64,000 nt of DNA from assembly GCF_030013595.1 (NCBI RefSeq), contig NZ_CP122769.1, one strand, 5' to 3'. Positions within the stretch are counted from its first letter, which is position 1, and the number at the start of each line of letters is the position of its first letter. Of the stretch, positions 35,467 to 64,000 are shown one piece after another. The notes below the pieces were generated by a model. That model had not been told where the DNA came from, did not search any database, and saw only the letters and a program-made list of their open reading frames with translations. Source of the stretch: Escherichia coli (GTDB lineage: Bacteria > Pseudomonadota > Gammaproteobacteria > Enterobacterales > Enterobacteriaceae). Position numbers and translations under genes: made by a program.

Positions 35467-35491
35467 CCCCGGCAATGCCGGGGTTTTTTTT
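35467..35491 (+). terminator. Rho-independent terminator after terE
   Basis: ccccggca-a-tgccgggg followed by T8. Confidence 0.8.
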
Positions 35492-40299: not shown

Positions 40300-40303
40300 C
40301 GAT

Positions 40304-43611: not shown

Positions 43612-43667
43612 GGGTGATGATGCCAACTTACTGATTTAGTGTATGATGGTGTTTTTGAGGTGCTCCA

Positions 43668-44365: not shown

Positions 44366-44523
44366 GTTGGAGTCATTACCGGCAGCATCAACTACATCGC
44401 AAGCAGTAAGAGTAAGTGACGATGCCACAGCAAGACACAATAAAGAAAATCTGTTTTTGAACATATTTGAGACCTTTTATAAAAATAAAATAACAGGAGA
44501 ATTGTATCATTAACAGTCTAGTT

Positions 44524-45189: not shown

Positions 45190-45246
45190 TATCTTCCTTA
45201 CATACCCATAGAACAGCTTTCTAAGAACGGTGGGCTCGCCTGAAAA

Positions 45247-45627: not shown

Positions 45628-45895
45628 TGAAGCCTCGTCTCAGCGATAACGCTTGAAATAGCCCGCTTTGGTCATCATGAAATTAGCCATCTGACTGGCG
45701 ATTTGATTGTATCTTACTCATAGTGCCCTACCTATAGGTTAAAAAGGGGCATTTTCGCTTTATAGCGTGTTCAGCAGCATCAATCCTCCCAAGAAAGGCT
45801 GGCTTATTAAGCCGGTCCATCATTTTCTGTATATCTCTCATCAATTTTTATATCCGCCCTGGAGTGCACCGTTCAAGCACACCGATTAGGCAGAT

Positions 45896-45954
45896 AGTCA
45901 CTAGTTAACTCTTTACTAGTGACTAAATTCCATTGATATACGTGACAACGTCAC
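45896..45954. repeat. palindromic elements in intergenic region
   Basis: agtcactagt-taactcttt-actagtgact (10-bp arms) and gtgac-aac-gtcac. Confidence 0.5.
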
Positions 45955-46220
45955 GTCATGAAAGCTTTTAAATGCCTATTTTTCATACAATGGGATTTAA
46001 TTAGGAGTAAATCCCATAGGCTTACATAAGGATGACAATTAAAAGCGTTAAATATCAACCAGATAGAATGATTACCCCCAATTAATGGGCTCATCACATT
46101 ATTTCACTGGCTGGGGTTATTGCTGGCATATCTGAAAGTGCTAATATGTTAGTCATTAGTAATTAGTAAAGCCTTTACTAAACGCGTTTCTACGTAAATT
46201 CTATAGGTTTTATAGGGTCC

Positions 46221-46301
46221 TGTCCGAGGACAATAAAGTTGTACACAAAGCACTAAAGTTGTAACCATTCTCAAAAAACGACGCTAATGTTGTATACTTA
46301 C
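46221..46301 (+). repeat. Tn7-like right-end terminus with TnsB-binding-site-like repeats
   Basis: TGTCCGAG-GACAATAAAGTTGTA... parallels the Tn7R terminus TGTGGGCG-GACAATAAAGTCTTA (from memory); further AAGTTGTA/ATGTTGTA repeats at 46251-46270 and 46282-46301; about 80 bp upstream of tnsA. Confidence 0.55.
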
Positions 46302-46378
46302 TGAATGTGTGGTTATAGGGTTGGAGACTATAAAATGCACATATAGGTACGTATCAATGTCGTTTTTAGGGTACGATC

Positions 46379-47221
46379 ATGGCTAGGGGTAGGCGTCTCA
46401 AATCCTATTTGGATTATGAAAATGCGCTAGGTGACGGCATAGGAGTGGGCTATGGCCAAAGTTATCAGCCCTGGCTTAGAGCTCAGGACGTTAAATCCCG
46501 TGGAAACCGTTCGATAGTCTTTGGCCTTAAGACGTTTCGAAACCATCATCTCCTTTCTTCTGTCGAAAGTAACTTTTTCTATCTGGCTGAGTTTAATGAC
46601 TCGGTGATTGATATCCGGGAACAATTCCCACTCTTTCCTCTCCGGCTTACCCAACAAATAGCAAATCATCTACATTTTCAACATCCTATGGTGAGGGGAG
46701 TAAGAGGAGTACCTGTCGAAGTTCTGAATGTTATGACAACCGATTTTTTACTGACCTTGAGAACTCCTGAAGGCGGACTTCGATACAAAGCTATAGCAGT
46801 AAAACATAACGAGAGCATACCTGAACGCGAAGCCCAAAAACTTGAAATAGAGAGGATGTTTTGGCAGTTGATTGATGTTGAGTTTCAAATTTATGTTGGC
46901 TCGGAACTCAATAACGTCGTCGGTAAAAACATTTGCTGGGCTACTTCTGTATTAAGAGATGGTTCTGAATTTTATGATAAATATCCTCTTGATAAAATCC
47001 TATGGAAGCTTAAACCAGATGTTTATCCCATAGTAGGACTACGTGCAATGATTTCATCAATCTTTGGGGTAGATGCACAAGAAGCGATGATGTTATTGCA
47101 GGCAATGATTGGATTAAAAATGATAAATGTTGATTTATCATATCCAATACTCGAAACCGGTCTGATAAAGATAATTTCCAATGACCACTATATAGGACTG
47201 AACGCAAATGGATATTATTAG
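46379..47221 (+). CDS. tnsA: Tn7-like transposase subunit TnsA
   Basis: 280 aa, position and size; overlaps tnsB start. Confidence 0.75.
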   Translation: MARGRRLKSYLDYENALGDGIGVGYGQSYQPWLRAQDVKSRGNRSIVFGLKTFRNHHLLSSVESNFFYLAEFNDSVIDIREQFPLFPLRLTQQIANHLHFQHPMVRGVRGVPVEVLNVMTTDFLLTLRTPEGGLRYKAIAVKHNESIPEREAQKLEIERMFWQLIDVEFQIYVGSELNNVVGKNICWATSVLRDGSEFYDKYPLDKILWKLKPDVYPIVGLRAMISSIFGVDAQEAMMLLQAMIGLKMINVDLSYPILETGLIKIISNDHYIGLNANGYY

Positions 47222-49331
47222 GAATTCAGTCTGGCTCTCTCAAGGCACTGATTTGCTTGCAGAGGGACTTTACCGTGTTTTGGATTTTGACAGAAAGGTC
47301 GATTTGTTAATTTTGTTTAAAATAAAATCAGAAAGAACGGGTAAGCCAATCCCTTTCTCATTTTCAATGTTTAAATATTATATTGAATCAAATAGCATAA
47401 CTTGTAAAGATTATATATATCCTTCATATATGTTAGTAGATGAGAAAGAATTAACAGATAAAGACAGAGGAAGGCGAGATGAAAATTACAATATCATTAA
47501 AGATCTTGTAGATGACAGAATGTTTCTGTTCGACTATGCATTACATAAAAAGTCGCACCTTTTAATGGATTACTCAAGAAATAAAAAAATATCACAATAT
47601 ACTATCAGAACGCTTCTGGCGTTGTATTGGCGACATGGGCAGGATATTTATGCATTGCTACCCGCATTCTCGAACTGTGGCGCCGCTGGGAAAAGTAGAA
47701 TCAAACATGAAATTAAACTTGGGAATTCCAAAAAAAACAGAGCATTACCTAATGAACGATCACGTGTTTTCATTCTTAATGAAAGAGATATAAATAATAT
47801 TAGAAAATCTCTCATTACGTATCATTATAAAGTTAACGGAGATACGATAAAGAAAACATTAGAGAGACATATTGATTTGTATTTTAGGGATGAAATTAAA
47901 ACAGCAAACCTAGAAAATAGAGCTCCATATGTTCCTTCTTTAAAACAATTTTCATACTGGAATAAAAAACTCTTCACTAAAGATTTCTCGATAAATAAGA
48001 AGAACACGAAAAAAGAAATAGACCTCAAAATGCGGGCGCTTTTAGGTAGTGTGGCTAATACAACTGTTTTGCCGGGTGATGTTTTCGAAATAGACTCAAC
48101 TGTCGCTGATGTACATCTTATTTCGAGTTTAAACAGACGAAAAGTCATTGGGCGTCCTACTATTTATACAGTGGTGGATCGTGCAACAAGAATGATTGTT
48201 GGCCTTCATGTTTCTTTATACCATGCTTCATGGCGAGCCGCCCGACAAGCGTTAGCAAATTGCTTTATGCCAAAAAAAGAATATTGTAGATTATTTGGAA
48301 TCTCTATTACTGATGATGATTGGCCTTGTTCTCACATTCCATTAACATTGATGTGTGACAACGGGGAGATGATTGGTCTTAAACCTCAGGAAGAGATGAC
48401 CCCCCTGACAAAACTTGAGTTTGCGCCAGTCGGTAGAGGCGACAGAAAAAGCATTGTTGAACGCTGTTTCGGCATTCTGAATGATGAGGTTATTCATAGG
48501 CTTATTGGAACAACACGAAGGGGAAAGATTGTTAAAGGAGAGCCAACACCGCAATCCAGGGCTTGTTTAACGATTCAGGAGGTCACGTCTTTACTGATTC
48601 GGGAGATACTTGCACATAATCAGAGAACGTATGAGGAACTGGCTTATATCAATCCCTTACTGATTGAAAATGATCTCGTAATATCACCAAAAAATAGTTG
48701 GATGATAAGCTTAAAGCACGGGAGATTCAGCGCAAGAGCCGTTGGGGCCGACGAAGTGATCGCACGATTGTTAATCCCTGTGAACGCTAACATTACCGCC
48801 GGTGGGATTCAGTACAATAATCTTTTTTATGAATGTGATCCTGAAATTGCATCAGGTGTCAGAGTATTTGGAAGAACCACTTGTGAAGCAAGAATAGATG
48901 ACAATTGCGTAGATTATATATATGTAAGATTTGACAAAAATAGCATTTTCAAAAAACATTACCTACTTAAGAAAAGAGATGTATTTAAAGGGAAAGCTCA
49001 TCTTGATACAGATGTAATGGCTGATTGGGTAGATACTCAAAAAGAAATTAATTTATTTACTCTGGATTCGCTCAGCAATATCAATAATAAAGATGAATTT
49101 AACAGGAAAGGTAACGAAAGATTAAATGAAATATACGAATCTCGCCGGGTACATGGTAAAGATATTAAAAAGAACAGAAAAAATGAACTTGATTCATTAG
49201 GGCGAACTCATGTTGCTAATGGAAGATCTGAACCCCTACTTCCTTCATCCAGTAATGTTCTGCTTTTGCCTGGCCGGGAGGAGAAACAAAGATGGTTAAA
49301 AGGTAAGAAGAAGACTGAGGACGCAGAATAA
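47208..49331 (+). CDS. tnsB: Tn7-like DDE transposase TnsB
   Basis: 707 aa; DDE core region (EIDSTVADV..VVDRATRMIVG..MCDNGEM). Confidence 0.85.
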   Translation: MDIIRNSVWLSQGTDLLAEGLYRVLDFDRKVDLLILFKIKSERTGKPIPFSFSMFKYYIESNSITCKDYIYPSYMLVDEKELTDKDRGRRDENYNIIKDLVDDRMFLFDYALHKKSHLLMDYSRNKKISQYTIRTLLALYWRHGQDIYALLPAFSNCGAAGKSRIKHEIKLGNSKKNRALPNERSRVFILNERDINNIRKSLITYHYKVNGDTIKKTLERHIDLYFRDEIKTANLENRAPYVPSLKQFSYWNKKLFTKDFSINKKNTKKEIDLKMRALLGSVANTTVLPGDVFEIDSTVADVHLISSLNRRKVIGRPTIYTVVDRATRMIVGLHVSLYHASWRAARQALANCFMPKKEYCRLFGISITDDDWPCSHIPLTLMCDNGEMIGLKPQEEMTPLTKLEFAPVGRGDRKSIVERCFGILNDEVIHRLIGTTRRGKIVKGEPTPQSRACLTIQEVTSLLIREILAHNQRTYEELAYINPLLIENDLVISPKNSWMISLKHGRFSARAVGADEVIARLLIPVNANITAGGIQYNNLFYECDPEIASGVRVFGRTTCEARIDDNCVDYIYVRFDKNSIFKKHYLLKKRDVFKGKAHLDTDVMADWVDTQKEINLFTLDSLSNINNKDEFNRKGNERLNEIYESRRVHGKDIKKNRKNELDSLGRTHVANGRSEPLLPSSSNVLLLPGREEKQRWLKGKKKTEDAE

Positions 49332-50779
49332 TGAATCTTATACGGCGCGTTTCAGCGATATATAAAGAACAGGAGTTACCTGAGTATCGTGGCAATCCCT
49401 TAATTGAAGCACTTCCTGAAGCGCTTACGGAAGATGAAGTACTTCTGGAAATGAGTTATTTCCCCGAAATTGACGAAAAAATCCGCTGGACTGCCCCGGC
49501 GAATGTTAGAGAGCAGTATGTCGAACGTATAAAGAAATTCCGTTGCCCTCAAACCAATCTTATCCAGGCTTATAAGATGATCTTACGGGCACTTAGGGAA
49601 AGCTATGCAGCTCGTAATCCTTTAAAAAGCGGAACAATTCAATATCTTCATTACTATGGAAATGAGCGTCCTGATATTGAGCCAGAAAGTGGATATTTTA
49701 AATCCCAGGCTGAAACTATTACGATAGTTGGAATGAGTGGTTCTGGAAAAACTACCATGATTGAGCAAGTCATGGAACATTTCCCTCAGATTATAGAACA
49801 CAGCAGCTATAAAGGAGTTTTTCCCGGCTTCAGTAAGCAAATTGTATGGGTAAAGATTAATTGTCCATACAATTCAAGTGTGAGAGACCTTTGTGAAGAG
49901 ATTTTACAAAAATTAGATGATGCAATTGGTATTGAACGAACTACACCTGAGATTAGAAATGGTGCTCTGGCTCGCCAGATTGCACAAAGAATTAAATCAT
50001 CATTTTTGGGTATCCTTGTTATTGATGAAATGCAGAGGCTTAAATTTTCAAGAACCGGGGGTGAGAGTAAGTTGATTGATTTTTTACATGAAATTGTAGA
50101 TTCCATGGGGGTATCTATGGTTTTTTGTGGAAATCATCCTTTTGACGAGACGCTGACAAAGAAAATGAGAATTGCCAGGCGGGCAGAGTCTGGTGGTTAC
50201 ATGAAAATTAAGAATGTTAGATACGATTCACAAGACTGGCAATCGTTTATTCATTATTTATGGCCATTACAATGGACAAATGTTGAAACTCCATTAAATG
50301 ATGAGTTAAACGAAAAATTATTCATTTTATCTAAAGGCAATATTGGATTGGCTCAGATGATTTATCGGGGGGCACAATTAAAGGTTATCGGTAGCGGCAA
50401 TGAAATCATCACTGGCGCAGTCTTGTCGGCCTCTGTACCGGTACTCGTGAGTCATACGGAGGAATATAAGGATACTCCACTCCCGGGGGCCGCGACTGAA
50501 GATGAGGAAGCTAAATGGCTCTCTGCATCTAATGAGGGTGATGCTTCGGCTAAAATCATGGCAGAGAAGTCCCTAAAGTCTTTGATCCCTGGGGATATAG
50601 ACAGGCCACAGCACAAGGAATTCGTAGGAAAAATAGACGAGGTTTTGCGCAATTTCGACGAGAAAATACTGTCTCTTGACCACGATCTTGTTATCAACAG
50701 AACAGCTGAAAAGAAAAATACCTACGATGCTCTTCAGCGTTGCGGGCTTATAAATATAGATCCACTTAATAAATTGTAA
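49331..50779 (+). CDS. tnsC: Tn7-like AAA+ ATPase TnsC
   Basis: Walker A GMSGSGKTT, Walker B VIDEMQ. Confidence 0.85.
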   Translation: MNLIRRVSAIYKEQELPEYRGNPLIEALPEALTEDEVLLEMSYFPEIDEKIRWTAPANVREQYVERIKKFRCPQTNLIQAYKMILRALRESYAARNPLKSGTIQYLHYYGNERPDIEPESGYFKSQAETITIVGMSGSGKTTMIEQVMEHFPQIIEHSSYKGVFPGFSKQIVWVKINCPYNSSVRDLCEEILQKLDDAIGIERTTPEIRNGALARQIAQRIKSSFLGILVIDEMQRLKFSRTGGESKLIDFLHEIVDSMGVSMVFCGNHPFDETLTKKMRIARRAESGGYMKIKNVRYDSQDWQSFIHYLWPLQWTNVETPLNDELNEKLFILSKGNIGLAQMIYRGAQLKVIGSGNEIITGAVLSASVPVLVSHTEEYKDTPLPGAATEDEEAKWLSASNEGDASAKIMAEKSLKSLIPGDIDRPQHKEFVGKIDEVLRNFDEKILSLDHDLVINRTAEKKNTYDALQRCGLINIDPLNKL

Positions 50780-50819
50780 TGAGGTAACAGTTCGTAACGG
50801 TCAAAGAGAGGTGTGGGAA

Positions 50820-52376
50820 ATGAGAATGTTGCCTGTTTTGCCTGATGAATCCTTGTTCAGCCGGTTTTGTCGGACAACTACCGTGTACGGTATGTCCCCA
50901 TCTTCTCTGTTAACGATCATTTTCAACAAACCTGATATGAACGTCCATCCAATTCTCAATTCAGGATTAAAGGCTATTTCTCTTCATACATCCGAAAGTG
51001 CAGATCAGCTCTGGCATGAACAGACTTTACTCCCTCTTTTTGCCTGGGCACTACCAATCAGTCGTAATGAAATTATGGATTTCAACACGACCCCTGCCAG
51101 GCTTAATCGATTGTGCCGCCTTAGTAATTTTTCACTAGGGCAGCGCACACTATTGAAGTTTTGCCCGGTTTGCGCTCGTGAAGATACTTTTCATTATGGT
51201 GTTACTTATTGGCATCTGGCGCATCAGCTTCATGGGGTTACAACCTGCCATCGGCATCCGGTAGCGCTTGAAAGCATCCATGTCCCTTCTTCACCGCACA
51301 TACGTATTGGACTGATGCCTCCTGTTTCGTATACAGAACAACTTAGCAATGAGATAGACTTCGATTTTGCTAAGTTTTGTTATGAGTCCCTAAATATAAT
51401 CAGAAGAAAAGATATTACACACCCCAATTACATGGATGTACTTAAAAAGTTGAATTTATTATCATTGGATGGAAATTTAAAGAAAAATGTATTCTACGCA
51501 CATGTTTATGCTAAGTGCCAGTTATTTGGGGAGGGTTCATCGGGACTTATACCAACATCCCTAACTGATTATCATTACTGGGAGCCTATACTCAAAGACA
51601 AATGTTGTCAGCATCCCACAAAGCATCTTTTGCTTTGTTATTGTTTGTTAAATACTTGCTGGCCAACGTATGCAGGAAGTCGTACTAATAAAAAGAAAGA
51701 AATCTTTAAAAGTCATAAGAAATACAGTTTTCATATAGTTGAAAATAATACTAGTGTTAGCAACCTTGGGAAGGAATTTAGTCGCAGCAGATGTTACATT
51801 AAAACACTTATTTATAAAAAATACCTGAGGGCGTTTAAGCGAAACACAAAAATTAATATATTCACTGAATTGCTTATCAAGTCTATGGCTGTAAGGGGGT
51901 TTAGTCTGGCATCCATAGCTGAGAAAAACTCATTATCGGAAGGAGCTGTATCCTCTGTAATTTCATCTTGTTACGGTTTATGCTCATGGCGTAAAAAATG
52001 TAAAAAAGATTCTTTAAGACGGCGTCATAAGCAGAAAATATTAAGATTTATACATAATCAATCCGTTTCTATAACACGAAAGTTAGTCAAAGAAAGTTGT
52101 TATGCAAGTTTCTATTGGCTAAATAAACATGAATGTGACTGGCTTAATTCCTGTCTTCCTAAAACAATACGATGCTATAAAAATAAAAGAGTAGACTGGA
52201 GCGAGAGAGATATTATCTCATCATCATTAATAAATGATGTTTTATCTCAGGGGCAGTACTCGATGTCACTTACAAGTCTAGATGCTTTACTGGGAGGGCA
52301 TGGCTGGCTTTTGAAATACAGAGATAAACTACCAATGACAATGATACTTCTCAGAAAAATGGAACTAATTAAATAA
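50820..52376 (+). CDS. tnsD: TnsD/TniQ-family target-selection protein
   Basis: N-terminal LPDESLFSRF and zinc finger CPVC..H..CHRH; ATG 50820 with gagagg RBS. Confidence 0.7.
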   Translation: MRMLPVLPDESLFSRFCRTTTVYGMSPSSLLTIIFNKPDMNVHPILNSGLKAISLHTSESADQLWHEQTLLPLFAWALPISRNEIMDFNTTPARLNRLCRLSNFSLGQRTLLKFCPVCAREDTFHYGVTYWHLAHQLHGVTTCHRHPVALESIHVPSSPHIRIGLMPPVSYTEQLSNEIDFDFAKFCYESLNIIRRKDITHPNYMDVLKKLNLLSLDGNLKKNVFYAHVYAKCQLFGEGSSGLIPTSLTDYHYWEPILKDKCCQHPTKHLLLCYCLLNTCWPTYAGSRTNKKKEIFKSHKKYSFHIVENNTSVSNLGKEFSRSRCYIKTLIYKKYLRAFKRNTKINIFTELLIKSMAVRGFSLASIAEKNSLSEGAVSSVISSCYGLCSWRKKCKKDSLRRRHKQKILRFIHNQSVSITRKLVKESCYASFYWLNKHECDWLNSCLPKTIRCYKNKRVDWSERDIISSSLINDVLSQGQYSMSLTSLDALLGGHGWLLKYRDKLPMTMILLRKMELIK

Positions 52377-52387
52377 GAGGGAGTTAT

Positions 52388-53314
52388 ATGGTTTACGAAA
52401 ATGAATTGTGGCACAGTTTTCTTCTGCGTTCACAGATAATGTATAACTTATCCAATTGCAGGAACATAATATCAAAGCATGGCGCACTAAGGTACGATGC
52501 CTTTCCTCGTTTCGAACTGATTGATATGTACAAATTGCATAGCTTGCAGGATATATATGACATTCTTGCCACTAGAAATGGTTATATACTAACTTCCAAT
52601 ATAGTGTCGTTATCTTCTGGTGTTTACGGGTATTTTAACGCTGTTGAAGATGCCTGTCGGAAAAATTTTCACATAACTAATTCATATCCATTGGTAAACA
52701 TCTCAAACATTCGTTACTGTCACAAATGTATTGTTGAAGATATACACTCTAAAGGCATTGGTTATCTGCGTCATAGATGGTTGTTTGAATCTAAATGTGC
52801 AGTTCATAGTACCAGTTTATATGAGGTTTGTTTTGATAACTATTTGAATGCAGTGAAAGGACTTAGTGACTTAATTATAAGTGGAATAAATCCTCATGGT
52901 TATTGTTCCCTTGTGGTTGACGTTTCAAACCCTTTCAAAAATCCAGTGTATATATTACCATGTGCACGTAATAAAATTTTAAAATGGATTTCGGACAATA
53001 AAAATATGCTGATTTACTTTCTCTTTGATCTCTTCAAATGTAAGTCGCATTCAAGTTTATCTAAGGTTATCGAAGTCAAGATAATGCATGATAGATATAT
53101 TTCTGCGGTGTTCAAGATGTTAAGTGAAGTTAATTTTTGTAATTTCAACTCATTTATTTCTGATATTTTTGAGGACGTAAGTTATGCCTCTATCGGACTT
53201 GATGATTATTCTGTTAATGTGCATTTTCTCAGGCTAAGGGCTGCAGATTGTAAATTTTGCCAGTTGAATGGTAAATATTTTTGCTCACTTTACAATGTAA
53301 AATTTCTTCGCTAA
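52388..53314 (+). CDS. second TniQ-like protein (short)
   Basis: N-terminal ENELWHSFLLRS and C-x2-C-x22-C-x2-H motif (CHKC...CAVH). Confidence 0.5.
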   Translation: MVYENELWHSFLLRSQIMYNLSNCRNIISKHGALRYDAFPRFELIDMYKLHSLQDIYDILATRNGYILTSNIVSLSSGVYGYFNAVEDACRKNFHITNSYPLVNISNIRYCHKCIVEDIHSKGIGYLRHRWLFESKCAVHSTSLYEVCFDNYLNAVKGLSDLIISGINPHGYCSLVVDVSNPFKNPVYILPCARNKILKWISDNKNMLIYFLFDLFKCKSHSSLSKVIEVKIMHDRYISAVFKMLSEVNFCNFNSFISDIFEDVSYASIGLDDYSVNVHFLRLRAADCKFCQLNGKYFCSLYNVKFLR

Positions 53315-53586
53315 TTTCACTTCATTTATAAAATACTAAGAAAGCTAGTTAGATAAGGTTTTATATTTTGACTGGGGCAGGAATAAATTATCACTCATAG
53401 AGTTTCCCTGGGGGTTACCACCTGTGTATGATGCCGGTTAGCAACAACGTCTAAAAGACCTGCGATCACGTGGGTCCCTCTCCAGCAAAGGGGCAAGGGG
53501 TGCTATATAACGGTGTACTGCTTACCCAATACGGCCTTGTATTTGAAAGATGCCGCATCTTGGCAGGATTCGTATTACAGCCTATA

Positions 53587-53629
53587 GTCTGTTAATGAGC
53601 ATTACAGCCTATATGCTGTAAATCCCTGC
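53587..53629 (+). promoter_or_regulatory. operator-like inverted repeats upstream of hipB paralogue
   Basis: ACAGC-N6-TCTGT at 53587-53602 and ACAGC-N6-GCTGT at 53614-53629, same type as hipBA operators. Confidence 0.45.
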
Positions 53630-53666
53630 GTTATGCTTGTTAACTCGTCGATACGGAAGGTCACTT

Positions 53667-53966
53667 ATGAACACTCAATACGCTTTGAAGACTTTGAATC
53701 AGTTACGTCCTGTTTTAATCGGCTTTCGCAAAGCCAATGGACTGACGCAAAAAGATGTTTCTGAACGTTTGGGTATAACACAGCAAACTTATGCCCGACT
53801 AGAGGCCAACCCTGCAAGTGCGGGTTTTGAGCGTTTGTTTAGGGTGTTCAGCGTCCTTGGAGTGGAGATCGTACTTTCATCCAGGGAACCATTGTCAGAT
53901 GCAAAGCCCGAATACGGAGCTATGCACAATTATTCTTCACTTCCAGCCAGGCGGGAGAAATGGTGA
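53667..53966 (+). CDS. HipB-like HTH regulator (orphan paralogue, no adjacent hipA)
   Basis: MNTQYALKTLNQLRPVLIGFRKANGLTQKDVSERLGITQQTYARLE closely parallels hipB at 40003. Confidence 0.75.
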   Translation: MNTQYALKTLNQLRPVLIGFRKANGLTQKDVSERLGITQQTYARLEANPASAGFERLFRVFSVLGVEIVLSSREPLSDAKPEYGAMHNYSSLPARREKW

Positions 53967-54529: not shown

Positions 54530-56355
54530 ATGCGGCTCAGAAAATTAAAACTGAAAAACTTCAGAGGCTACAGAAACTCTACTGAAATCATTATTGATGA
54601 AAGCATGACGGGTATTGTCGGTCGTAATGACTTTGGGAAATCAACGCTTCTGGAAGCGCTGGCTATTTTTTTTGAAACAGAAGGAATGAAGGCTGACAAG
54701 AATGACATGAACTGTTTCAGCCTAAGAGAAGGGGACGGCCGTTTTGAAATAGCCTGTGAATTTGATGACCTGCCCGATTTTATCATGATCGACGACAGGG
54801 TGCAGACCACGCTCGCCTCAGAACATCTGCTGAATGAGGACGGCAATTTTGAAATCGTCAAAACGTTTAAAGCAACGACCTCAGGAAAACCGGAGCAGAC
54901 CTGCATCCGCTGCATCCACCCGGATGAGGAGCCCCTGAGAAATTTACTGGGCATGAAAATTTCTGAGCTCAAGGCGGTGGGAAAAGAAGTTGAAAAAAAT
55001 GTGGCGGATAAACGCACTGCATCGTTATGGCGTCAGGCCATCAGGGAAGCCGCAGCCCCCTATACCTGTTCGGAAATTATGCTGGATGTCGATAAAGAGT
55101 TCGGAACCGACACAAAATCATTATGGGGTAAGATCCTCGATTTGCTGCCCACGTATGCGATTTTCAAAGCCGACAGGGAAAGCAGCGACGGGGATTCCGA
55201 AGCTAAAAACCCCTTACAGCAGGCCGTAAAAGACGCTCAGGCTGCGCTGCAGGACAAAATTACAGCGCTGGAAAATGAGATTCAGGACAGCGTCCTGGAT
55301 GTCGCACAGAGAACGCTGGATAAATTACGTGAAATGGCCCCCGAACTCGCCAGTGAACTGACTCCACGATTTAAGGAGAAACCCAAGTGGACCTTCAATT
55401 TCACCCTGGACGGGGAAAATGGCATCCCCATCAATAAGCGCGGCAGCGGGATAAGGAGGCTTATCCTGTTGAATTTTTTCGGGCTGAGGCTGAAAAGAAT
55501 GTCGCGGGGACGCCCAGAAATGTGATTTATGCCATAGAGGAGCCTGAAACGTCACAGCATCCGAACTATCAGATGATGCTGATGAAAGCGTTACTGGCAC
55601 TGGCAGGCCAGCCGCACCGTCAGATTATCGTCACCACCCATGTCCCGGCGCTGGCCGGATTAATCCCTGTCGAAGGCGTACGTTATGTTACCCGAAATGA
55701 GGCGGGTGAACCCGTAGTAAAAATGCCGGATGACGCAGTGCTGAAGGAAGCCACTGAAAGCCTGGGGGTGCTGCCAGAGACCGGTATGGAAAGGGCGCAG
55801 GGGATTGTTCTGGTAGAGGGAAAGTCGGATGTTACTTTCCTGAGGCATGCGGCCAGTTCATTAAAACAGTCAGGTGCGCTGCCAGCCTCTCTGGAGGACG
55901 TGAAAATAGTGCCAGTCCTCATAGGAGGGTGTGGTAGCGTCAAACACTGGGTTACATTGAATCTGGCCAAAGATCTGGGGCTTCCCTGGTGCGTATTTCT
56001 GGACTCCGATATTGGGGGAGACCCTGCACAGGTTCTGTCCATCCAGAAGCGTAAAAAAGAAGTAGAGGAGGCCGGTAAGGTATTTTTCGCTACGCGCAAA
56101 CGTGAGATAGAAAACTATCTGTGCCCGGATCTTATCGAGGAAATTACTGGTGTAGCCGTCACGTTTACGGACACCTGTGACGCTAAAAAAATAATCGGCC
56201 GGGCTGTGGGAATGAAACCCGATAATGTACTAGATAAATTCTGGCCTCAGATGACATCAGAAAGAATCATCTCAAGATCAACCTATCATGACGGAACGCA
56301 GGAGAGAAGCGAGCTGGTTGAGATCCTGAGCGACATTGTATCCATGACGAGATAA
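54530..56355 (+). pseudogene. OLD-family ATP-dependent nuclease (AAA ATPase + Toprim), apparent frameshift
   Basis: Walker A GRNDFGKST; downstream frame has IEEPETSQHP and Toprim VLVEGKSDV / VFLDSD; frames switch at the T6C run 55474-55480. Confidence 0.65.
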
Positions 56356-56453
56356 TGTATTAAATAAGCATCTCAGGTGCATATATTCCGGTCCTCAACA
56401 AAGGACCGGAGTACAGAGTAGTAAAAACCCGAAATTAAGGTAATGACTCCAAC

Positions 56454-56957
56454 TTATTGATAGTGTTTTATGTTCAGATAATGCCCGATGACTTTGTCAT
56501 GCAGCTCCACCGATTTTGAGAACGACAGCGACTTCCGTCCCAGCCGTGCCAGGTGCTGCCTCAGATTCAGGTTATGCCGCTCAATTCGCTGCGTATATCG
56601 CTTGCTGATTACGTGCAGCTTTCCCTTCAGGCGGGATTCATACAGCGGCCAGCCATCCGTCATCCATATCACCACGTCAAAGGGTGACAGCAGGCTCATA
56701 AGACGCCCCAGCGTCGCCATAGTGCGTTCACCGAATACGTGCGCAACAACCGTCTTCCGGAGCCTGTCATACGCGTAAAACAGCCAGCGCTGGCGCGATT
56801 TAGCCCCGACATAGCCCCACTGTTCGTCCATTTCCGCGCAGACGATGACGTCACTGCCCGGCTGTATGCGCGAGGTTACCGACTGCGGCCTGAGTTTTTT
56901 AAGTGACGTAAAATCGTGTTGAGGCCAACGCCCATAATGCGGGCGGTTGCCCGGCAT
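56454..56957 (-). CDS. insB: IS1 InsB
   Basis: Near-identical to copy 1 InsB. Confidence 0.9.
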
Positions 56958-57151
56958 CCAACGCCATTCATGGCCATATCAATGATTTTCTGGTGCGTAC
57001 CGGGTTGAGAAGCGGTGTAAGTGAACTGCAGTTGCCATGTTTTACGGCAGTGAGAGCAGAGATAGCGCTGATGTCCGGCGGTGCTTTTGCCGTTACGCAC
57101 CACCCCGTCAGTAGCTGAACAGGAGGGACAGCTGATAGAAACAGAAGCCAC
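56876..57151 (-). CDS. insA: IS1 InsA
   Basis: Near-identical to copy 1 InsA (one substitution F to L). Confidence 0.95.
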
Positions 57152-57299
57152 TGGAGCACCTCAAAAACACCATCATACACTAAATCAGTAAGTTGGCAGC
57201 ATCACCGAAATTAATCGGGTTTGAATTGTATAAAGATTAACCGACTCCCGCGCCCAGGAACGATGTAAAATCACGCTTGTCGTGACATTTCTACAATGT

Positions 57300-57650
57300 T
57301 TACTTTTGACTATCAAGCCATTTATTCATCTGCTCAATTTCACCTTTTTGAGCTTTAATGATGTCCTGCGCGAGCTTTCTCATTTTCGGATCTTTTCCGT
57401 ATTTGAGCTCGGTCTCAGCCATTGCTATTGCCCCTTCATGGTGCGCTACCATGCCTTTCGCAAAAGCCTTGTCGGGATCGGACTCATTTACGGCAGCCAT
57501 CATTTTGTCATGCATGTCTTTCATGCCAGCCATATATTCCTGTGACGAAGCCGAGGTAGACATATCAGTCATTTTCATTTCTGAATGTTCTGCTGAAATC
57601 GCTGGCAGGGATAACATTAATACTGCAAATAAAGTGTTTCTGGCTTTCAT
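57300..57650 (-). CDS. DUF305-like periplasmic Met/His-rich protein
   Basis: Signal peptide; MVAHHEGAIAMAE..LAQDIIKAQKGEIEQMNKWL resembles DUF305. Confidence 0.6.
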   Translation of the reverse strand: MKARNTLFAVLMLSLPAISAEHSEMKMTDMSTSASSQEYMAGMKDMHDKMMAAVNESDPDKAFAKGMVAHHEGAIAMAETELKYGKDPKMRKLAQDIIKAQKGEIEQMNKWLDSQK

Positions 57651-57797
57651 AAAAAATATCCTTTTAGCGTTGATGCCCGTTAACTGTAGCAGAATCTGAT
57701 AAAAATGCCCCCTGTAGGGGGCAAAGATGTTGCCATATATCCGGTTACGGAAAAATCTATCAAGGAAATAAGGACAGCACAGATACTTCCCTCGCCG

Positions 57798-58229
57798 TCA
57801 GCCTGCACTGAGCATGCGACGATGCGCTTCGGCCATGGCCTGATGTGGGCCAGACTGACCGTTATTCATAAATTCATGGGCAACTGCAGCTCTTTCATGC
57901 TCATTCATTGCCGCTAATGACTTCGACGGCCCGGTAGGGGAAACGGTCTGACTTCCCATCATCCTCTGATGACTTTCCACCATTTTCTGGTGCGCATCCG
58001 CCGACCCGTTCGTCATGGTTTCATGAGCAATAATGGCCTGTTCATGCTGGTCCATACCGGTCATACGAGGAGCAGTCCCCTGGATCCCGACAGGAGCCGC
58101 AGCAGACTGCATCTGGTGAGCAGGAGCCTGTGCATTGTTGACGCGATCATGGATATTCACGGTTTCAGTGGCCCAGGCCGATGAAATTAAACCAAAGCCC
58201 AGCAAAGATGCTAATACGATATTTTTCAT
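57798..58229 (-). CDS. silE: SilE periplasmic silver-binding protein
   Basis: 143 aa from MKNIVLASLLGF..; His/Met-rich repeats; the ORF-track start at 58346 is an upstream extension. Confidence 0.9.
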   Translation of the reverse strand: MKNIVLASLLGFGLISSAWATETVNIHDRVNNAQAPAHQMQSAAAPVGIQGTAPRMTGMDQHEQAIIAHETMTNGSADAHQKMVESHQRMMGSQTVSPTGPSKSLAAMNEHERAAVAHEFMNNGQSGPHQAMAEAHRRMLSAG

Positions 58230-58448
58230 GATAACTCTCCATTTCTGAATTAGTGATGTCCGGGGAAGTACAACCGGTGTTTTCAGTTCCATAACTGAAA
58301 CAAGTTCGGCAGCGTTTATTTCTCCGGAAGAGGGCTGGATATTCATTTCCTGGCGTACTCTGACGCCGGGTATTGATGAAGCAATCCAGCCTTCCTGATA
58401 AGTTGCACTAATTATATCGAATGGCTTCTGTTTGCTGCATGACAGGCT

Positions 58449-58466
58449 AATGACATCTTTGTCATT
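58449..58466 (-). promoter_or_regulatory. SilR/CusR-type box upstream of silE
   Basis: aATGACAtctTTGTCATt palindrome. Confidence 0.55.
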
Positions 58467-58479
58467 TACATCTTTATTT

Positions 58480-59955
58480 TCAGCATTGGGTTTCCGGGAT
58501 CATTTTCTCCAGTCTGGGCACGGATAAGATAAAACGCGTGGAGCGTACGTCTGATTCCACCTGCACTCTTCCGTGATGTGCTTCCACGATTGACTTCACA
58601 ATCGCAAGGCCGATGCCGCTGCCTTCTCCTTTGCGTTGTCTGGATGGATCCACCCGATAAAAACGGTCAAACAGCCTTGATAAATGTTCTTCAGGGATCG
58701 GTTTCCCCGGATTTTCAATCACAAGGTCAAAAAAGCTCTCCTGCTCTCTTATTGAGACGGTGATTGCCTGTCCCTCCGGGGTATAACGCAGGGCATTGGA
58801 TAACAGATTATTGATCGCCCTTCTGAACATTTGTGGATCTCCCTCAACCAGGCAGGGCATCCCGTTAAATTTGAGCGTGATATTGCGTTCTTCGGCCCAG
58901 GCTTCGAAAAACTCGAAGACTTTCATGACTTCCGCTCTGAGGTCAAACATGACCCTGTCAGGTATCAGCTGATTATTATCTGCCTGTGCCAGGAACAGCA
59001 TATCGCTGACCATTTTGGTCATCCGGTTATACTCTTCAAGACTGGAATAGAGGACATCCTCAAGTTCCCTCTGTGTTCGATCCTGACTCAGTGCGATTTC
59101 AGTCTGCGTCACCAGATTGGTGATGGGCGTTCTGATCTCATGCGCGATATCGGCAGAGAAATTGGCCTGGCGGGTAAAGACATCCTCAATCTTTCCAATC
59201 ATATGATTGAACGAGATAACCAGTTGCTCCAGCTCAATGGGAACGCGTGTCGGTTCCAGTCGCGCATCAAGATTCTCGGAGGTGATGTTTTTAATGGCAT
59301 TGCTGACATTACGAAGGGGCAGGTGCCCCTGACGGACAGCGATTCGAATGATCAGAACAATCAACAGGCTTATCACGACGGCAATCGCAATCAGGTTCTT
59401 TTTCAGCGCATCGAGGTAATGGAGATGGAAATTAATGGATAGGCCAGTCAGCATGACATAGTTCTGCTGTTTGCCCTGAAATATCGCCTGACCAGAGGAG
59501 GCGATAATCCTGTATGTTTCCATCTTCATTTCGGACCCGGTATCCATCGGTCCCGCAGGATCCTCCACCGTCCAGAGAAAGACATCCCGTGCGCGGCTGT
59601 GCTCGCTAAAATCTGCTGAATTCACTGCCGGGCGTAGTGCCGCCCCCTGAGCTGAGCTAAAGAGCACTTCACCCCTGGGATTGAGGAGCAAAAGGGCAAC
59701 GTTGCGGTAGCTGGCAATTGATTCCTTTATTTTGCTTATTTTTTTATCATCCGGATCCACCGGGGACTGCAGTATACGGTTCAGTGTGGTGCTGATTTGT
59801 TGAAGATCGCTGACATCCTGCTCGGCAAAATGATTTTCAACAGAATGCAGCATAAACCAGGTGAAGGCGATAAAAGCCAGTATCGTGGACAGGCTGATAA
59901 AAAAGGTCAGCCGCAGAGCGAGTGAGAAAGGGCGTCTGGAAGGTTTGCTATGCAT
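58480..59955 (-). CDS. silS: SilS sensor histidine kinase (CusS-like)
   Basis: Two TM segments, H-box [10 protein letters not shown], ATPase motifs. Confidence 0.9.
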
Positions 59956-60628
59956 CCGGGACCTCCAGCATGTAGCCCACGCCCCGGACTGTCTGGATCA
60001 GCTTTGTCCCGTAATCGTTGTCTATTTTAGCGCGGAGTCGCTTTACTGCGACATCGATCGCATTAGTGTCGCTGTCAAAATTCATGTCCCAGACCTGAGA
60101 GGCAATCAGGGAGCGGGGAAGAACCTCTCCCTGATGGCGAATGAAGAATTCCAGCAGGCTGAACTCTTTACTGGTGAGTACAATGCGGTTTCCGGCGCGA
60201 CTGACTTTTCTGGATACGAGATCAATCGAGAGGTCAGCCACCTTAAACTGGCTTTCCGTGATCATCGTGTTTCCCCGCCTCAGAAGGGTTCTCACCCGGG
60301 CGAGCAGTTCGGCAAACGCAAAGGGTTTAACCAGATAATCGTCCGCACCCAGTTCCAGTCCTTTGACCCTGTGTTCGATCGTGCCGAGGGCTGTCAGCAG
60401 TAAGACCGGCATACCCTTTCCGGCAGTGCGCAGCATGCGGATGATATCCCAGCCGTTCACATCAGGTAGCATGATATCCAGAATGACTAAATCATACTCG
60501 GCTGTCATGGCGAGATGATATCCGGTAAGACCATTATCAGCGTGATCCACTACGAACCCTGCCTCTGTAAGCCCTTTGCTGAGATATTCACCTGTTTTAA
60601 TTTCGTCTTCGACGATCAATATTTTCAT
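59948..60628 (-). CDS. silR: SilR response regulator (CusR-like, OmpR family)
   Basis: MKILIVEDE receiver domain, winged-helix C-terminus. Confidence 0.9.
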
Positions 60629-60695
60629 CTTGCTCCCCGGCTGGCTGCTAATGTCATTCTATTGCGCCCACGATCGTTATCAACGGATTACAGCA

Positions 60696-60716
60696 AAAAT
60701 GACAACATTGTCATTA
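60696..60716 (+). promoter_or_regulatory. SilR/CusR box in silRS-silCFB divergent promoter
   Basis: aaaATGACAAcaTTGTCATta. Confidence 0.65.
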
Positions 60717-60817
60717 TCCTGTCACCCGGCAAACAGAGAGCGTTAGGTAAAGTACCCCTATCAATACTCTGGACTTCGTTTGAACCATTTACCAGGTCTG
60801 CCTGTACGAGAAGCGTT

Positions 60818-62203
60818 ATGTTCAAATTAAAATTACTCAGCATCAGTACCATATTCATCCTGGCTGGTTGTGTTTCTCTGGCACCTGAATATCAGCGTCC
60901 GCCAGCTCCGGTTCCCCAGCAGTTTTCATTGTCTAAAAACAGTCTGACGCCTGCGGTAAACAGCTATCAGGATACGGGCTGGCGAAACTTTTTTGTCGAT
61001 CCCCAGGTCAGCAGGCTGATCGGTGAAGCCCTGAATAATAACCGTGATTTGAGAATGGCTGCCCTGAAGGTTGAAGAGGCCCGGGCCCAGTTCAACGTCA
61101 CGGATGCAGATCGTTATCCCCAACTGAATGCCTCATCCGGGATCACATACAACGGTGGTCTGAAAGGTGACAAGCCGACCACACAGGAGTACGACGCGGG
61201 TCTGGAGCTCAGCTATGAGCTCGATTTTTTTGGCAAACTTAAGAACATGAGTGAGGCTGATCGCCAGAACTACTTTGCCAGCGAAGAAGCCCGTCGTGCC
61301 GTACACATCCTGCTGGTCTCCAACGTTTCACAGAGCTATTTCAGCCAGCAACTGGCGTACGAACAACTCCGTATTGCGCGGGAAACGCTGAAAAATTATG
61401 AACAGTCCTATGCTTTCGTTGAGCAACAGCTCGTGACCGGGAGTACGAACGTTCTGGCACTTGAACAGGCGAGAGGACAAATCGAAAGTACCCGCGCCGA
61501 AATAGCCAAACGAGAAGGCGATCTGGCTCAGGCAAACAATGCCCTGCAACTGGTGCTGGGAACGTACCGCGCACTTCCGTCAGAAAAAGGGATGAAAGGC
61601 GGGGAGATCGCACCAGTAAAATTGCCACCAAATCTATCTTCACAAATTTTGCTGCAGCGACCGGATATTATGGAAGCGGAATATCAGCTGAAAGCGGCTG
61701 ATGCCAATATTGGCGCAGCGCGAGCGGCCTTTTTCCCCTCCATTACCCTGACCAGTGGTCTTTCCGCAAGCAGTACGGAGCTGTCAAGCCTGTTTACGTC
61801 AGGAAGTGGAATGTGGAATTTTATCCCTAAAATTGAAATTCCTATTTTTAATGCTGGCAGGAATAAAGCCAATCTGAAGCTGGCTGAAATTCGCCAGCAA
61901 CAATCGGTGGTTAATTACGAACAAAAAATTCAGTCAGCCTTTAAGGATGTTTCCGACACGCTTGCGCTGCGCGACAGCCTTAGCCAGCAACTTGAGTCAC
62001 AGCAGCGTTATCTTGATTCACTTCAGATAACTCTCCAGCGTGCCAGAGGATTATATGCAAGTGGTGCTGTCAGTTACATCGAAGTGCTGGATGCAGAACG
62101 TTCCCTCTTCGCTACGCAGCAAACCATTCTCGATCTTACCTATTCCCGACAGGTTAACGAAATTAATCTGTTTACCGCGCTGGGTGGCGGTTGGGTAGAG
62201 TAA
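60818..62203 (+). CDS. silC: SilC outer-membrane efflux channel (CusC-like)
   Basis: 461 aa from MFKLKLLSISTIFILAGC lipoprotein signal; the ORF-track start at 60515 is an extension. Confidence 0.9.
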   Translation: MFKLKLLSISTIFILAGCVSLAPEYQRPPAPVPQQFSLSKNSLTPAVNSYQDTGWRNFFVDPQVSRLIGEALNNNRDLRMAALKVEEARAQFNVTDADRYPQLNASSGITYNGGLKGDKPTTQEYDAGLELSYELDFFGKLKNMSEADRQNYFASEEARRAVHILLVSNVSQSYFSQQLAYEQLRIARETLKNYEQSYAFVEQQLVTGSTNVLALEQARGQIESTRAEIAKREGDLAQANNALQLVLGTYRALPSEKGMKGGEIAPVKLPPNLSSQILLQRPDIMEAEYQLKAADANIGAARAAFFPSITLTSGLSASSTELSSLFTSGSGMWNFIPKIEIPIFNAGRNKANLKLAEIRQQQSVVNYEQKIQSAFKDVSDTLALRDSLSQQLESQQRYLDSLQITLQRARGLYASGAVSYIEVLDAERSLFATQQTILDLTYSRQVNEINLFTALGGGWVE

Positions 62204-62230
62204 ATTTATTTAATTAATCAGGAAATTAAA

Positions 62231-62584
62231 ATGCGTAATTCACTTAAAGCCGTTTTATTTGGTGCCTTCTCTGTCATGTTTTCTGCCGGTCTTCATGCTG
62301 AAACACATCAGCATGGCGATATGAATACTGCCAGTGATGCTTCGGTACAGCAAGTTATCAAGGGCACCGGTGTCGTTAAAGACATTGATATGAATACTAA
62401 GAAAATCACCATTTCGCATGAAGCAATTCCAGCGGTGGGCTGGCCTGCAATGACCATGCGCTTTACTTTTGTTAATGCAGACGATGCTATTAATGCCCTG
62501 AAAACAGGCAACCATGTCGATTTCTCGTTTATTCAGCAGGGCAATATCTCCTTACTCAAAAGCATTAACGTGACGCAGTCCTGA
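62231..62584 (+). CDS. silF: SilF periplasmic metallochaperone (CusF-like)
   Basis: 117 aa with signal peptide and MTMRF motif. Confidence 0.85.
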   Translation: MRNSLKAVLFGAFSVMFSAGLHAETHQHGDMNTASDASVQQVIKGTGVVKDIDMNTKKITISHEAIPAVGWPAMTMRFTFVNADDAINALKTGNHVDFSFIQQGNISLLKSINVTQS

Positions 62585-62697
62585 TTGGCTGTCCGGAGCG
62601 ATTACATCCTGTGCGCCTGTACATTCACATAGGTATATGTGTGAGTTAACCGTCAGGCGCATATGCCAGGTGTTTTGATTTTTTAGCGGAAAATTGT

Positions 62698-63990: not shown

Positions 63991-64000
63991 GGAGACGACG

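What the first reader, a model, noticed from the sequence alone, without database searches (positions are those of the whole stretch)
46221..53314. Tn7-like element with recognisable right end and two TniQ-family genes
The sequence TGTCCGAG-GACAATAAAGTTGTA at 46221 parallels the Tn7 right terminus and is followed by two more AAGTTGTA-type repeats. tnsA, tnsB and tnsC are intact, followed by a 518-aa TnsD/TniQ protein and a 308-aa second TniQ-like protein with its own C-x2-C...C-x2-H finger. Two target selectors imply dual target pathways; no tnsE-like gene is seen.
Basis: partly seen in the sequence, partly recalled or inferred. Interest (0 to 1): 0.55.

Follow-up and report, generated by a model that had tools for sequence, protein, structure and literature searches.

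The report
Tn6230 silver/copper transposon, two TniQ selectors
This is the right end and transposition module of Tn6230, an already named Tn7-like transposon that carries silver and copper resistance on IncHI2 plasmids. Its unannotated fifth gene is a divergent small TniQ, and the element repeatedly lands in one specific IncHI plasmid site as well as at chromosomal yhiN.

Summary
A Tn7-type right end starts at 46221, followed by intact tnsA, tnsB, tnsC, a 518-aa TnsD and a 308-aa ORF.

The window is 99.97-99.99% identical to IncHI2 plasmid NZ_CP117034.1. There the left end lies 33,186 bp downstream, outside the window, with a 5-bp duplication (GGTCC). A related plasmid has the empty site.

The element is Tn6230, the known sil/pco transposon of R478 and pMG101. 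It occurs in about 1,180 plasmid records and 938 of 5,426 complete E. coli genomes.

The 308-aa protein is a divergent TniQ:
- hhalign to the TnsD family gives 96.5% probability.
- The CxxC...CxxH residues are invariant among homologues.

Dual TniQ/TnsD loci are already a described common architecture.

All insertions I read in full fall into two target classes. One is the 3' end of chromosomal yhiN. The other is a conserved intergenic site of IncHI1/IncHI2 plasmids, hit independently several times (duplications GGTCC, CCTAC, GGTGG), with the right end 39-44 bp from a conserved palindrome.

Assigning TnsD to yhiN and the small TniQ to the plasmid site is inference. Verdict: a known element, correctly read. 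The plasmid attachment site is the only possibly new point.

The parts
46165..46179 (.). Palindrome AGTAAAGCCTTTACT in the IncHI backbone, 41 bp outside the right end. Candidate recognition element of the plasmid attachment site.
   Evidence: Conserved between the IncHI2 and IncHI1 sites (AGTAAAGGCGTTACT in IncHI1), although the 80-bp flanks are only 58% identical. It lies 39-44 bp from every independent insertion. Its role is inferred.
46216..46220 (.). Right-hand copy of the 5-bp target-site duplication, GGTCC.
   Evidence: The same 5 bp follow the left end in NZ_CP117034.1. There is a single copy in the empty site of p14EC029b.
46221..46294 (+). Tn6230 right end: terminal TGT plus three TnsB-site-like repeats at offsets 10, 30 and 61.
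   Evidence: The motif recurs, inverted, only at the left end.
46379..47221 (+). tnsA, the endonuclease subunit of the heteromeric transposase (280 aa).
   Evidence: E = 2.5e-31 to Tn7 TnsA 1f1z. The REQ, TDF and VK motifs are conserved.
47208..49331 (+). tnsB, the DDE transposase (707 aa).
   Evidence: E = 1.5e-49 to Tn7 TnsB 7pik. The EID, CDNGE and IVER motifs are conserved.
49331..50779 (+). tnsC, the AAA+ adaptor/regulator (482 aa).
   Evidence: E = 4e-37 to Tn7 TnsC 7mbw. Walker A and Walker B are conserved.
50820..52376 (+). tnsD, the large target selector (518 aa). Inferred to be the yhiN selector.
   Evidence: Pfam TniQ 1.7e-19 plus TnsD 8.8e-15. Homologues at 31-33% identity in Yersinia and Vibrio sit directly downstream of yhiN.
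52388..53314 (+). Small second TniQ (308 aa), probably the gene called tnsF by Peters 2014 (inferred). Annotated as a hypothetical protein.
   Evidence: Conserved next to tnsD/tniQ in divergent relatives.
53637..53966 (+). XRE/HipB-like helix-turn-helix gene; cargo or regulator.
   Evidence: NCBIfam couple_hipB 3.4e-10. It is not conserved next to the small TniQ in relatives.
54530..56355 (+). OLD-family ATPase-TOPRIM cargo gene (AriA/GajA-like), frameshifted in the window.
   Evidence: PADLOC AriA 4.9e-57, GajA and Old. A T-run one base shorter at 55473 splits it.
56438..57206 (-). IS1 inserted in the cargo.
57300..64000 (.). Start of the sil cargo: a DUF305 gene, then silE, silS, silR, silC, silF and silB, which is cut by the window end.
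   Evidence: Annotation of the 99.97%-identical record; ORFs.

Best explanation
Window 46221 onward is the right end and transposition module of Tn6230. This is a 33-kb Tn7-like cut-and-paste transposon whose cargo is the sil/pco silver and copper resistance island. Here it sits in an IncHI2 plasmid.

Inferred by homology to Tn7:
- TnsA plus TnsB cut both ends and join them to the target, leaving a 5-bp duplication.
- TnsC, an AAA+ protein, couples the transposase to a target selector.

Shown by comparative data:
- Identical or near-identical copies occupy only two kinds of site, always with the right end nearest the conserved sequence.
- Site (i) is the last codons of chromosomal yhiN, 59-62 bp from the start of the conserved sequence encoding GGYNFQWAW.
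- Site (ii) is one intergenic site of IncHI1/IncHI2 plasmids, upstream of a DUF4942 gene, 39-44 bp from a conserved palindrome.

Inferred assignment of selectors:
- The 518-aa TnsD, with its C-terminal TnsD domain, binds the yhiN coding sequence directly, as Tn7 TnsD binds glmS.
- The 308-aa protein has the size and domain order of a core-only TniQ with no large C-terminal extension. It would bridge TnsC to the plasmid site, possibly through a partner DNA-binding protein.
- This would give the element a chromosomal safe site and a plasmid route for horizontal spread.
For: Identity of the element:
- The window is 99.97-99.99% identical to NZ_CP117034.1.
- The left-end junction is 100% identical to that of R478.
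- The terminal repeats nearly match the published Tn6230 repeats, and R478 is named there as the reference (PMC13049778).
- The cargo is sil/pco.

Core machinery.

Ends, duplication and empty site.

Chromosomal site:
- The right end abuts yhiN in essentially all chromosomal rows of a spread sample of 971 E. coli records.
- The duplication there is ATTGC.
- Transposition from a plasmid to the yhiN-yhiM interval has been observed in the laboratory (PMC8417528).
- Relatives with 31-33% identical TnsD also sit at yhiN, at the same distance from the conserved motif.

Plasmid site, independent events:
- IncHI2, duplication GGTCC.
- IncHI2 of Enterobacter, duplication CCTAC, offset by 3 bp, with a 7%-diverged element variant.
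- IncHI1A, duplication GGTGG. The element's right-end 500 bp are 100% identical to the window's while the flank is only 58% identical.
- The reconstructed empty IncHI1 site is 100% identical to pHCM1, and 220 plasmids cover at least 80% of it.
- The diverged variant is also at the IncHI1B site.
- A third variant is at both yhiN and IncHI2.

The yhiN and plasmid flanks are unrelated: 15-32% identity at any offset.

Small TniQ. The order of elements in its predicted structure (N-terminal helices, zinc-finger region, a connecting helix, a second helical block) agrees with the roughly 300-aa TniQ core described in PMC10293859. That paper predicts that small TniQs in dual loci act through a partner.
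Against: - No experiment or computation here links either selector to either site. The assignment could be reversed, or TnsD could serve both sites.
- Pairwise BLASTP between the two selectors is not significant (E = 0.16).
- No partner protein was identified. The neighbouring HTH gene is not syntenic in relatives.
- Some same-position plasmid insertions could reflect recombination between element variants rather than new transposition.
- The left end of the copy in this window is not visible.
Confidence: 0.7

Rival explanations
1. The plasmid location is one ancient insertion in an IncHI ancestor, inherited vertically and shuffled by recombination. There is then no plasmid attachment site, and the 308-aa protein need not be a plasmid selector.
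For: Most IncHI2 records share the same junction. The flank and element co-diverge at about 93% in the Enterobacter lineage. Homologous recombination between plasmids is common.
Against: - The Enterobacter-lineage copy has a different 5-bp duplication, CCTAC, offset 3 bp from GGTCC.
- IncHI1 copies have their own duplication, GGTGG. Their flanks are 58% identical while the element's right-end 500 bp are 100% identical to the window's.
- Pristine empty sites exist in both plasmid groups.
Confidence: 0.07
2. TnsD alone, perhaps with host or plasmid factors, directs both the yhiN and IncHI insertions. The small TniQ is then a regulator, an inhibitor, a decayed paralogue, or serves a third target not yet seen.
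For: No direct link was found between the small TniQ and the plasmid site. It lacks an obvious DNA-binding extension. Tn7 TnsD is known to use host factors (title of PMC12372198, seen).
Against: - The two target sequences show no similarity.
- The small TniQ family keeps invariant zinc ligands at 17-27% identity (one closer member at 59%) and stays next to tnsD/tniQ in divergent elements. This argues for a selected function of the TniQ type.
- Dual loci are generally read as two pathways (PMC10293859, PMC11406308).
Confidence: 0.2
3. The fifth gene is a TnsE-type selector that targets replicating conjugal DNA non-specifically. The pMG101 paper labels the module tnsABCDE.
For: The gene occupies the position of tnsE in Tn7, and that is its label in PMC8417528.
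Against: - No TnsE match appeared in the PDB sequence or fold searches; the top hits are TniQ/TnsD.
- It is 308 aa, against roughly 540 aa for TnsE (my own knowledge).
- Plasmid insertions are at one site, not scattered.
Confidence: 0.03

Closest known systems
Tn6230 (Peters et al. 2014; prototype in plasmid R478; also called Tn7/sil/pco or the CHASRI-associated Tn7-like element)
   Same: It is the same element.
- The left-end junction is 100% identical to R478.
- It has the same tnsABCD plus fifth gene, the same sil/pco cargo and the same yhiN attachment site.
- The published terminal repeats differ by 1 nt on the tnsA-proximal side and 4 nt on the other.
   Different: Nothing essential. This copy has an IS1 in the cargo and a frameshifted OLD-family ATPase gene. 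It represents the 'A' sequence variant, about 7% diverged from the Enterobacter and Leclercia variant.
Tn7 (tnsABCDE; attTn7 at glmS)
   Same: - Heteromeric TnsA/TnsB transposase, TnsC, and TnsD with a TniQ N-terminal domain.
- TGT ends with closely spaced sites on the right and wider spacing on the left.
- 5-bp duplication, with the right end next to the recognised gene and insertion tens of bp from the recognised sequence.
- The terminal 23 bp match Tn7-R at 18 of 23 positions. The Tn7 sequence is recalled from memory.
   Different: - The attachment site is yhiN, not glmS, and the insertion removes the last yhiN codons.
- There is no TnsE. The second selector is a small TniQ.
- Plasmid insertions are at a single sequence-defined site rather than in replication structures.
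Dual TniQ-TnsD Tn7-like loci (Faure et al. 2023, PMC10293859), including type I-B, I-D and Tn7017 CASTs
   Same: A large TnsD (over 400 aa) sits next to a much smaller core-only TniQ. The pair is interpreted as two target pathways.
   Different: No Cascade, Cas12k or CRISPR array is present. The partner of the small TniQ, if any, is unknown.
Tn5053/Tn402 family ('res hunters')
   Same: A TniQ-dependent transposon that homes to a specific plasmid-borne site. This is the conceptual match to the IncHI site targeting (PMC11406308, Table 1).
   Different: Those elements lack TnsA and target resolution sites. The IncHI site is an intergenic palindrome-containing region with no known res function.
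Tn6022 (TniQ plus TnsF at comM, plus TnsE)
   Same: A small TniQ works through a separate DNA-binding partner (PMC11014353). This is a possible model for the 308-aa protein.
   Different: No XerH-like TnsF homologue is present here. PMC11014353 states that the TnsF-encoding gene of the Tn6230 element is not the same gene as Tn6022 tnsF.

Membership tests
Tn7-like heteromeric-transposase transposon | TnsA endonuclease with the catalytic E/D/K | tested here: met
   E = 2.5e-31 to 1f1z; the motifs are conserved in the alignment.
Tn7-like heteromeric-transposase transposon | TnsB DDE transposase | tested here: met
   E = 1.5e-49 to 7pik; the D, D and E positions are conserved.
Tn7-like heteromeric-transposase transposon | TnsC AAA+ regulator | tested here: met
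   E = 4e-37 to 7mbw; Walker A and B are conserved.
Tn7-like heteromeric-transposase transposon | TGT/ACA termini with multiple TnsB-binding repeats at both ends | tested here: met
   The right end is in the window. The left end is in the 99.97%-identical plasmid.
Tn7-like heteromeric-transposase transposon | 5-bp target-site duplication | tested here: met
   GGTCC, CCTAC, GGTGG and ATTGC at four independent sites. Empty sites. The left copy for this window lies outside it.
Tn7-like heteromeric-transposase transposon | Demonstrated transposition | not testable with these tools
   The literature reports movement from pMG101 to the E. coli J53 yhiN-yhiM interval (PMC8417528).
Tn6230 subfamily | Attachment site at the 3' end of yhiN, right end proximal | tested here: met
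   Identical copies in E. coli chromosomes. Also in Enterobacter asburiae and in the Yersinia and Vibrio relatives. The window copy itself is at the plasmid site.
Tn6230 subfamily | Published terminal inverted repeats and the R478 prototype junction | tested here: met
   1 and 4 mismatches to the published repeats. The left-end junction is 100% identical to R478.
TniQ family (PF06527), for the 308-aa protein | Significant match to TniQ profiles | tested here: met
   The single sequence is borderline with Pfam (i-E 0.0016, 19.5 bits). PADLOC TniQ gives 1.2e-5. Of the 46 aligned sequences, 24 match Pfam TniQ at E <= 0.1 and 7 at E <= 1e-3. hhalign to the TnsD family gives 96.5% probability, E = 8.7e-10.
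TniQ family (PF06527), for the 308-aa protein | Zinc finger CxxC...CxxH after an N-terminal helical domain | tested here: met
   C111, C114, C137 and H140 are invariant in 46 sequences and align to the Tn7 TnsD finger.
TniQ family (PF06527), for the 308-aa protein | TniQ fold | tested here: inconclusive
TniQ family (PF06527), for the 308-aa protein | Interaction with TnsC and a role in target selection | not testable with these tools
   Needs genetics or biochemistry.
TnsE | Sequence or fold similarity to TnsE | tested here: not met
   No TnsE match.
CRISPR-associated transposon (CAST) | cas effector genes and a CRISPR array inside the element | tested here: not met
   No Rfam hit. No tandem repeats in 45000-64000. 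No cas genes in the annotation of the whole element.

The most novel reading that the evidence does not exclude
Tn6230 has a second, sequence-defined attachment site on the backbone of IncHI1/IncHI2 conjugative plasmids. The site lies upstream of the DUF4942 gene, 39-44 bp from a conserved palindrome. It would be recognised through the small 308-aa TniQ, alone or with an unidentified DNA-binding partner.

This would be a plasmid-family-specific homing pathway. It differs from TnsE replication-structure targeting and from CAST guide RNAs. It would explain why sil/pco travels so consistently with IncHI plasmids.

I could not read Peters et al. 2014, which named a TnsF gene in a Tn6230 element, so part of this may already be proposed there.
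Probability: 0.45. Interest if true: 0.5.

Novelty: already known. Interest (0 to 1): 0.3.

Why it matters
Tn6230 is the main vehicle of silver and copper resistance in Enterobacteriaceae, and the platform into which mcr-9 inserts (PMC13049778). A 2024 review still lists its targeting as 'molecular details are unknown' (PMC11406308).

Three points from this work give a concrete, testable model for how the element moves between a chromosomal safe site and conjugative plasmids:
- the unannotated fifth gene is a small TniQ;
- independent insertions converge on one IncHI site;
- that site has the same geometry as TnsD at attTn7.

A defined small TniQ with a defined DNA target could also interest people who engineer Tn7-type insertion systems. 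For the genome scan itself, this is a correct call of an already described element.

Tried and rejected
- NCBIfam gave no family for TnsA, TnsB, TnsD or the 308-aa protein, and only sub-threshold AAA hits for TnsC. I used PDB sequence searches instead.
- Pairwise BLASTP of the two selectors was not significant (E = 0.16). Profiles were needed.
- The word-indexed homologue search found only close relatives. The exhaustive search found 79.
- The full 23-mer right end does not recur at the left end within 3 mismatches. The left end was found through the 8-mer repeat.
- A scan of species-representative genomes for the exact right end gave only 3 loci: one at yhiN and two at IncHI2. This is too few for a census.
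- The first E. coli chromosome I examined carries an IS66-degraded copy, but its ends were still usable.
- One IncHI1B/IncP plasmid matched only one flank. It turned out to be a rearranged, tns-less sil region and was not informative.
- I considered the downstream XRE-type HTH gene as the DNA-binding partner of the small TniQ. I set this aside because it is not syntenic in relatives.
- I considered a CAST. I rejected it because there are no cas genes or arrays.
- Peters et al. 2014 could not be retrieved.
Full report
**Observation**

The sequence TGTCCGAGGACAATAAAGTTGTA begins at 46221. Two further copies of the same motif follow, at offsets 30 and 61 from the terminus.

Five co-directional ORFs follow:
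- tnsA, 46379-47221
- tnsB, 47208-49331
- tnsC, 49331-50779
- tnsD, 518 aa from the ATG at 50820
- a 308-aa ORF, 52388-53314

TnsA, TnsB and TnsC match the solved Tn7 proteins at E = 2.5e-31, 1.5e-49 and 4e-37. The nuclease, DDE and Walker motifs are conserved in the alignments. The large selector is TniQ plus TnsD by Pfam.

**What the window is**

The window is 99.97-99.99% identical over its whole length to the IncHI2 plasmid NZ_CP117034.1. Its backbone carries the ter operon, hipBA and other IncHI2 genes.

In that plasmid the octamer AAGTTGTA occurs only four times in 49 kb: twice at the right end and twice, inverted, just after pcoE. The left terminus, read inward, is TGTGTAGAGACATTAAAGTTGTA. 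GGTCC flanks both ends. The element is 33,186 bp, so its left end corresponds to window position 79,406, outside the window.

A related plasmid, p14EC029b, has the uninterrupted site with one copy of the pentamer.

The cargo consists of:
- an HTH gene
- an OLD-family ATPase-TOPRIM gene
- an IS1
- silESRCFBA(G)P
- pcoABCDRSE

**Identity**

This is Tn6230.
- The left-end junction is 100% identical to plasmid R478. A 2026 paper names R478 as the Tn6230 reference. That paper's published terminal repeats differ from these by 1 and 4 bases (PMC13049778).
- The 7.4-kb module occurs in 1,181 plasmid records and in 938 of 5,426 complete E. coli genomes, mostly at 99% identity or more.
[quoted passage not shown] - A TnsF-encoding gene of a Tn6230 element was named by Peters et al. 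2014, according to PMC11014353. I infer that this is the fifth gene. I could not obtain the 2014 paper.

**The 308-aa protein**

RefSeq calls it hypothetical, and no Pfam domain is precomputed for it.

Taken alone it is a borderline TniQ:
- Pfam i-E 0.0016, but covering model positions 7-142 of 142
- PADLOC TniQ 1.2e-5
- BLASTP to the neighbouring TnsD not significant

An exhaustive search found 79 relatives. In an alignment of the query with 45 of them, C111, C114, C137 and H140 are invariant. C192 is also invariant, and C288, C291 and C299 nearly so. Of the 46 aligned sequences, 7 match Pfam TniQ at E <= 1e-3 and 24 at E <= 0.1.

The family profile gives:
- Tn7 TnsD among solved chains at E = 5.9e-4, and V. 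cholerae TniQ at 0.049
- hhalign against an alignment of the TnsD family: 96.5% probability, E = 8.7e-10, over residues 1-154

The order of elements in the model is N-terminal helices, zinc-finger region, a connecting helix and a second helical block. That agrees with the roughly 300-aa TniQ core described by Faure et al. (PMC10293859). I conclude it is a divergent, core-only TniQ, not a TnsE. The pMG101 paper's label tnsABCDE is a misnomer.

Homologues at 25-31% identity sit next to tnsC-tnsD, or convergent to tnsD/tniQ, in other Tn7-like elements of Buttiauxella, Yersinia and others. The pairing is therefore conserved.

**Targets**

A spread sample of 971 matching E. coli records shows two kinds of right-end junction. 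The chromosomal rows begin at the transposon terminus and overlap yhiN. The others carry the IncHI2 flank.

*At yhiN:*
- The element replaces the last codons of yhiN and supplies its stop codon. The duplication is ATTGC.
- Relatives whose TnsD is only 31-33% identical, in Yersinia ruckeri and Vibrio splendidus, also sit right after yhiN.
- In all of these cases, and in Enterobacter asburiae, the insertion point is 59-62 bp from the start of the conserved GGYNFQW coding motif.

*In plasmids,* the junctions I read in full all lie in one homologous intergenic region, and they are not one event:
- The window type has duplication GGTCC.
- The Enterobacter IncHI2 lineage carries a 7%-diverged element variant, inserted 3 bp further on, with duplication CCTAC.
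- IncHI1A plasmids carry an element whose right-end 500 bp are 100% identical to the window's, with duplication GGTGG, in a flank only 58% identical to the IncHI2 flank.
- The reconstructed empty IncHI1 site is 100% identical to pHCM1, and 220 plasmids cover at least 80% of it.
- The diverged variant is also at the IncHI1B site.
- A third variant, whose small TniQ is 81% identical, is found both at yhiN and at the IncHI2 site.

In every case the right end faces a conserved palindrome: AGTAAAGCCTTTACT at window 46165-46179, and AGTAAAGGCGTTACT in IncHI1. The palindrome lies 39-44 bp from the junction.

This is the geometry known for TnsD at attTn7, where the binding site is roughly +23 to +58 on the right-end side. 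That figure is established knowledge about Tn7, not something tested here.

The yhiN and plasmid flanks are unrelated, at 15-32% identity at any offset.

**Mechanism**

Shown here:
- The machinery is complete and Tn7-like.
- Two unrelated sequence-defined targets are used by the same element, each with a 5-bp duplication and a fixed orientation.
- There are two TniQ-family selectors.

Inferred:
- TnsD, with its DNA-binding C-terminal domain, reads yhiN.
- The small TniQ couples TnsC to the IncHI site, perhaps through a partner. Faure et al. predict this for small TniQs in dual loci, and Tn6022 TniQ does it with its TnsF.
- I found no partner. The adjacent HTH gene is not conserved with the small TniQ.

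**Comparison and novelty**

The element is already known. Tandem TniQ/TnsD loci number about a thousand in Faure et al. 2023. The two-TniQ, two-pathway logic is stated in the 2024 review.

Two points may be new. The first is the explicit evidence that the fifth gene is a TniQ. The second is that IncHI plasmids carry a second attachment site hit repeatedly. The closest concept is the Tn5053 family, which homes to plasmid res sites. I could not check Peters et al. 2014, so I give this only moderate weight.

**Verdict**

The finding is a re-identification of Tn6230. Interest is 0.3, novelty 'already known', with one testable lead.

Noticed in passing
window 54470-56355 (frameshift at 55473): The OLD-family ATPase-TOPRIM cargo gene matches PADLOC AriA at 4.9e-57, plus GajA and Old. 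It is a single 608-aa CDS in NZ_CP117034.1. In the window it is split into two ORFs by a T-run one base shorter. This is either a pseudogene or a homopolymer sequencing error.
   Followed up: partly
L003 2380-2520 (E. coli chromosome NZ_CP025840.1): At the chromosomal site the Tn6230 right end replaces the last yhiN codons (...QDLIAAKSS* becomes ...QDLIAVRGQ*). The transposon terminus supplies the stop codon, so yhiN stays open.
   Followed up: partly
window 45895-46017: The 600-bp IncHI intergenic region upstream of the insertion holds hairpins conserved between IncHI1 and IncHI2 despite low overall identity. These are TAGTCACTAGTTAA/TTTACTAGTGACTA, GTGACAACGTCAC, and ATGGGATTTA-N8-TAAATCCCAT. 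Their function is unknown and there is no Rfam match.
   Followed up: partly
window 43613-44380 and 56438-57206: There are two IS1 copies, about 99.2% identical to each other, in opposite orientation. One is in the backbone about 1.8 kb outside the right end. The other is inside the transposon cargo, between the ATPase gene and the DUF305 gene. Recombination between them could invert the whole tns module.
   Followed up: no
L029 4498-8056; L012 7093-12045: Distant Tn7-like relatives that carry homologues of the small TniQ have defence-type cargo. One has a Gabija-like pair (OLD-like ATPase plus UvrD helicase). Another has a 1,650-aa NERD/kinase/helicase protein.
   Followed up: no
window 4775-6744 and 17000-37000: The backbone holds an IS21 (istAB) insertion and the full IncHI2 tellurite-resistance region (terZABCDE, terW, terY-like). 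hipBA lies at 40006-41629.
   Followed up: no
L016 10754-11904 (Vibrio splendidus): In this yhiN-inserted relative an IS3-type transposase gene directly follows tnsD, where the small TniQ would be. Its tnsA and tnsB are also shortened, so the element looks decayed.
   Followed up: no
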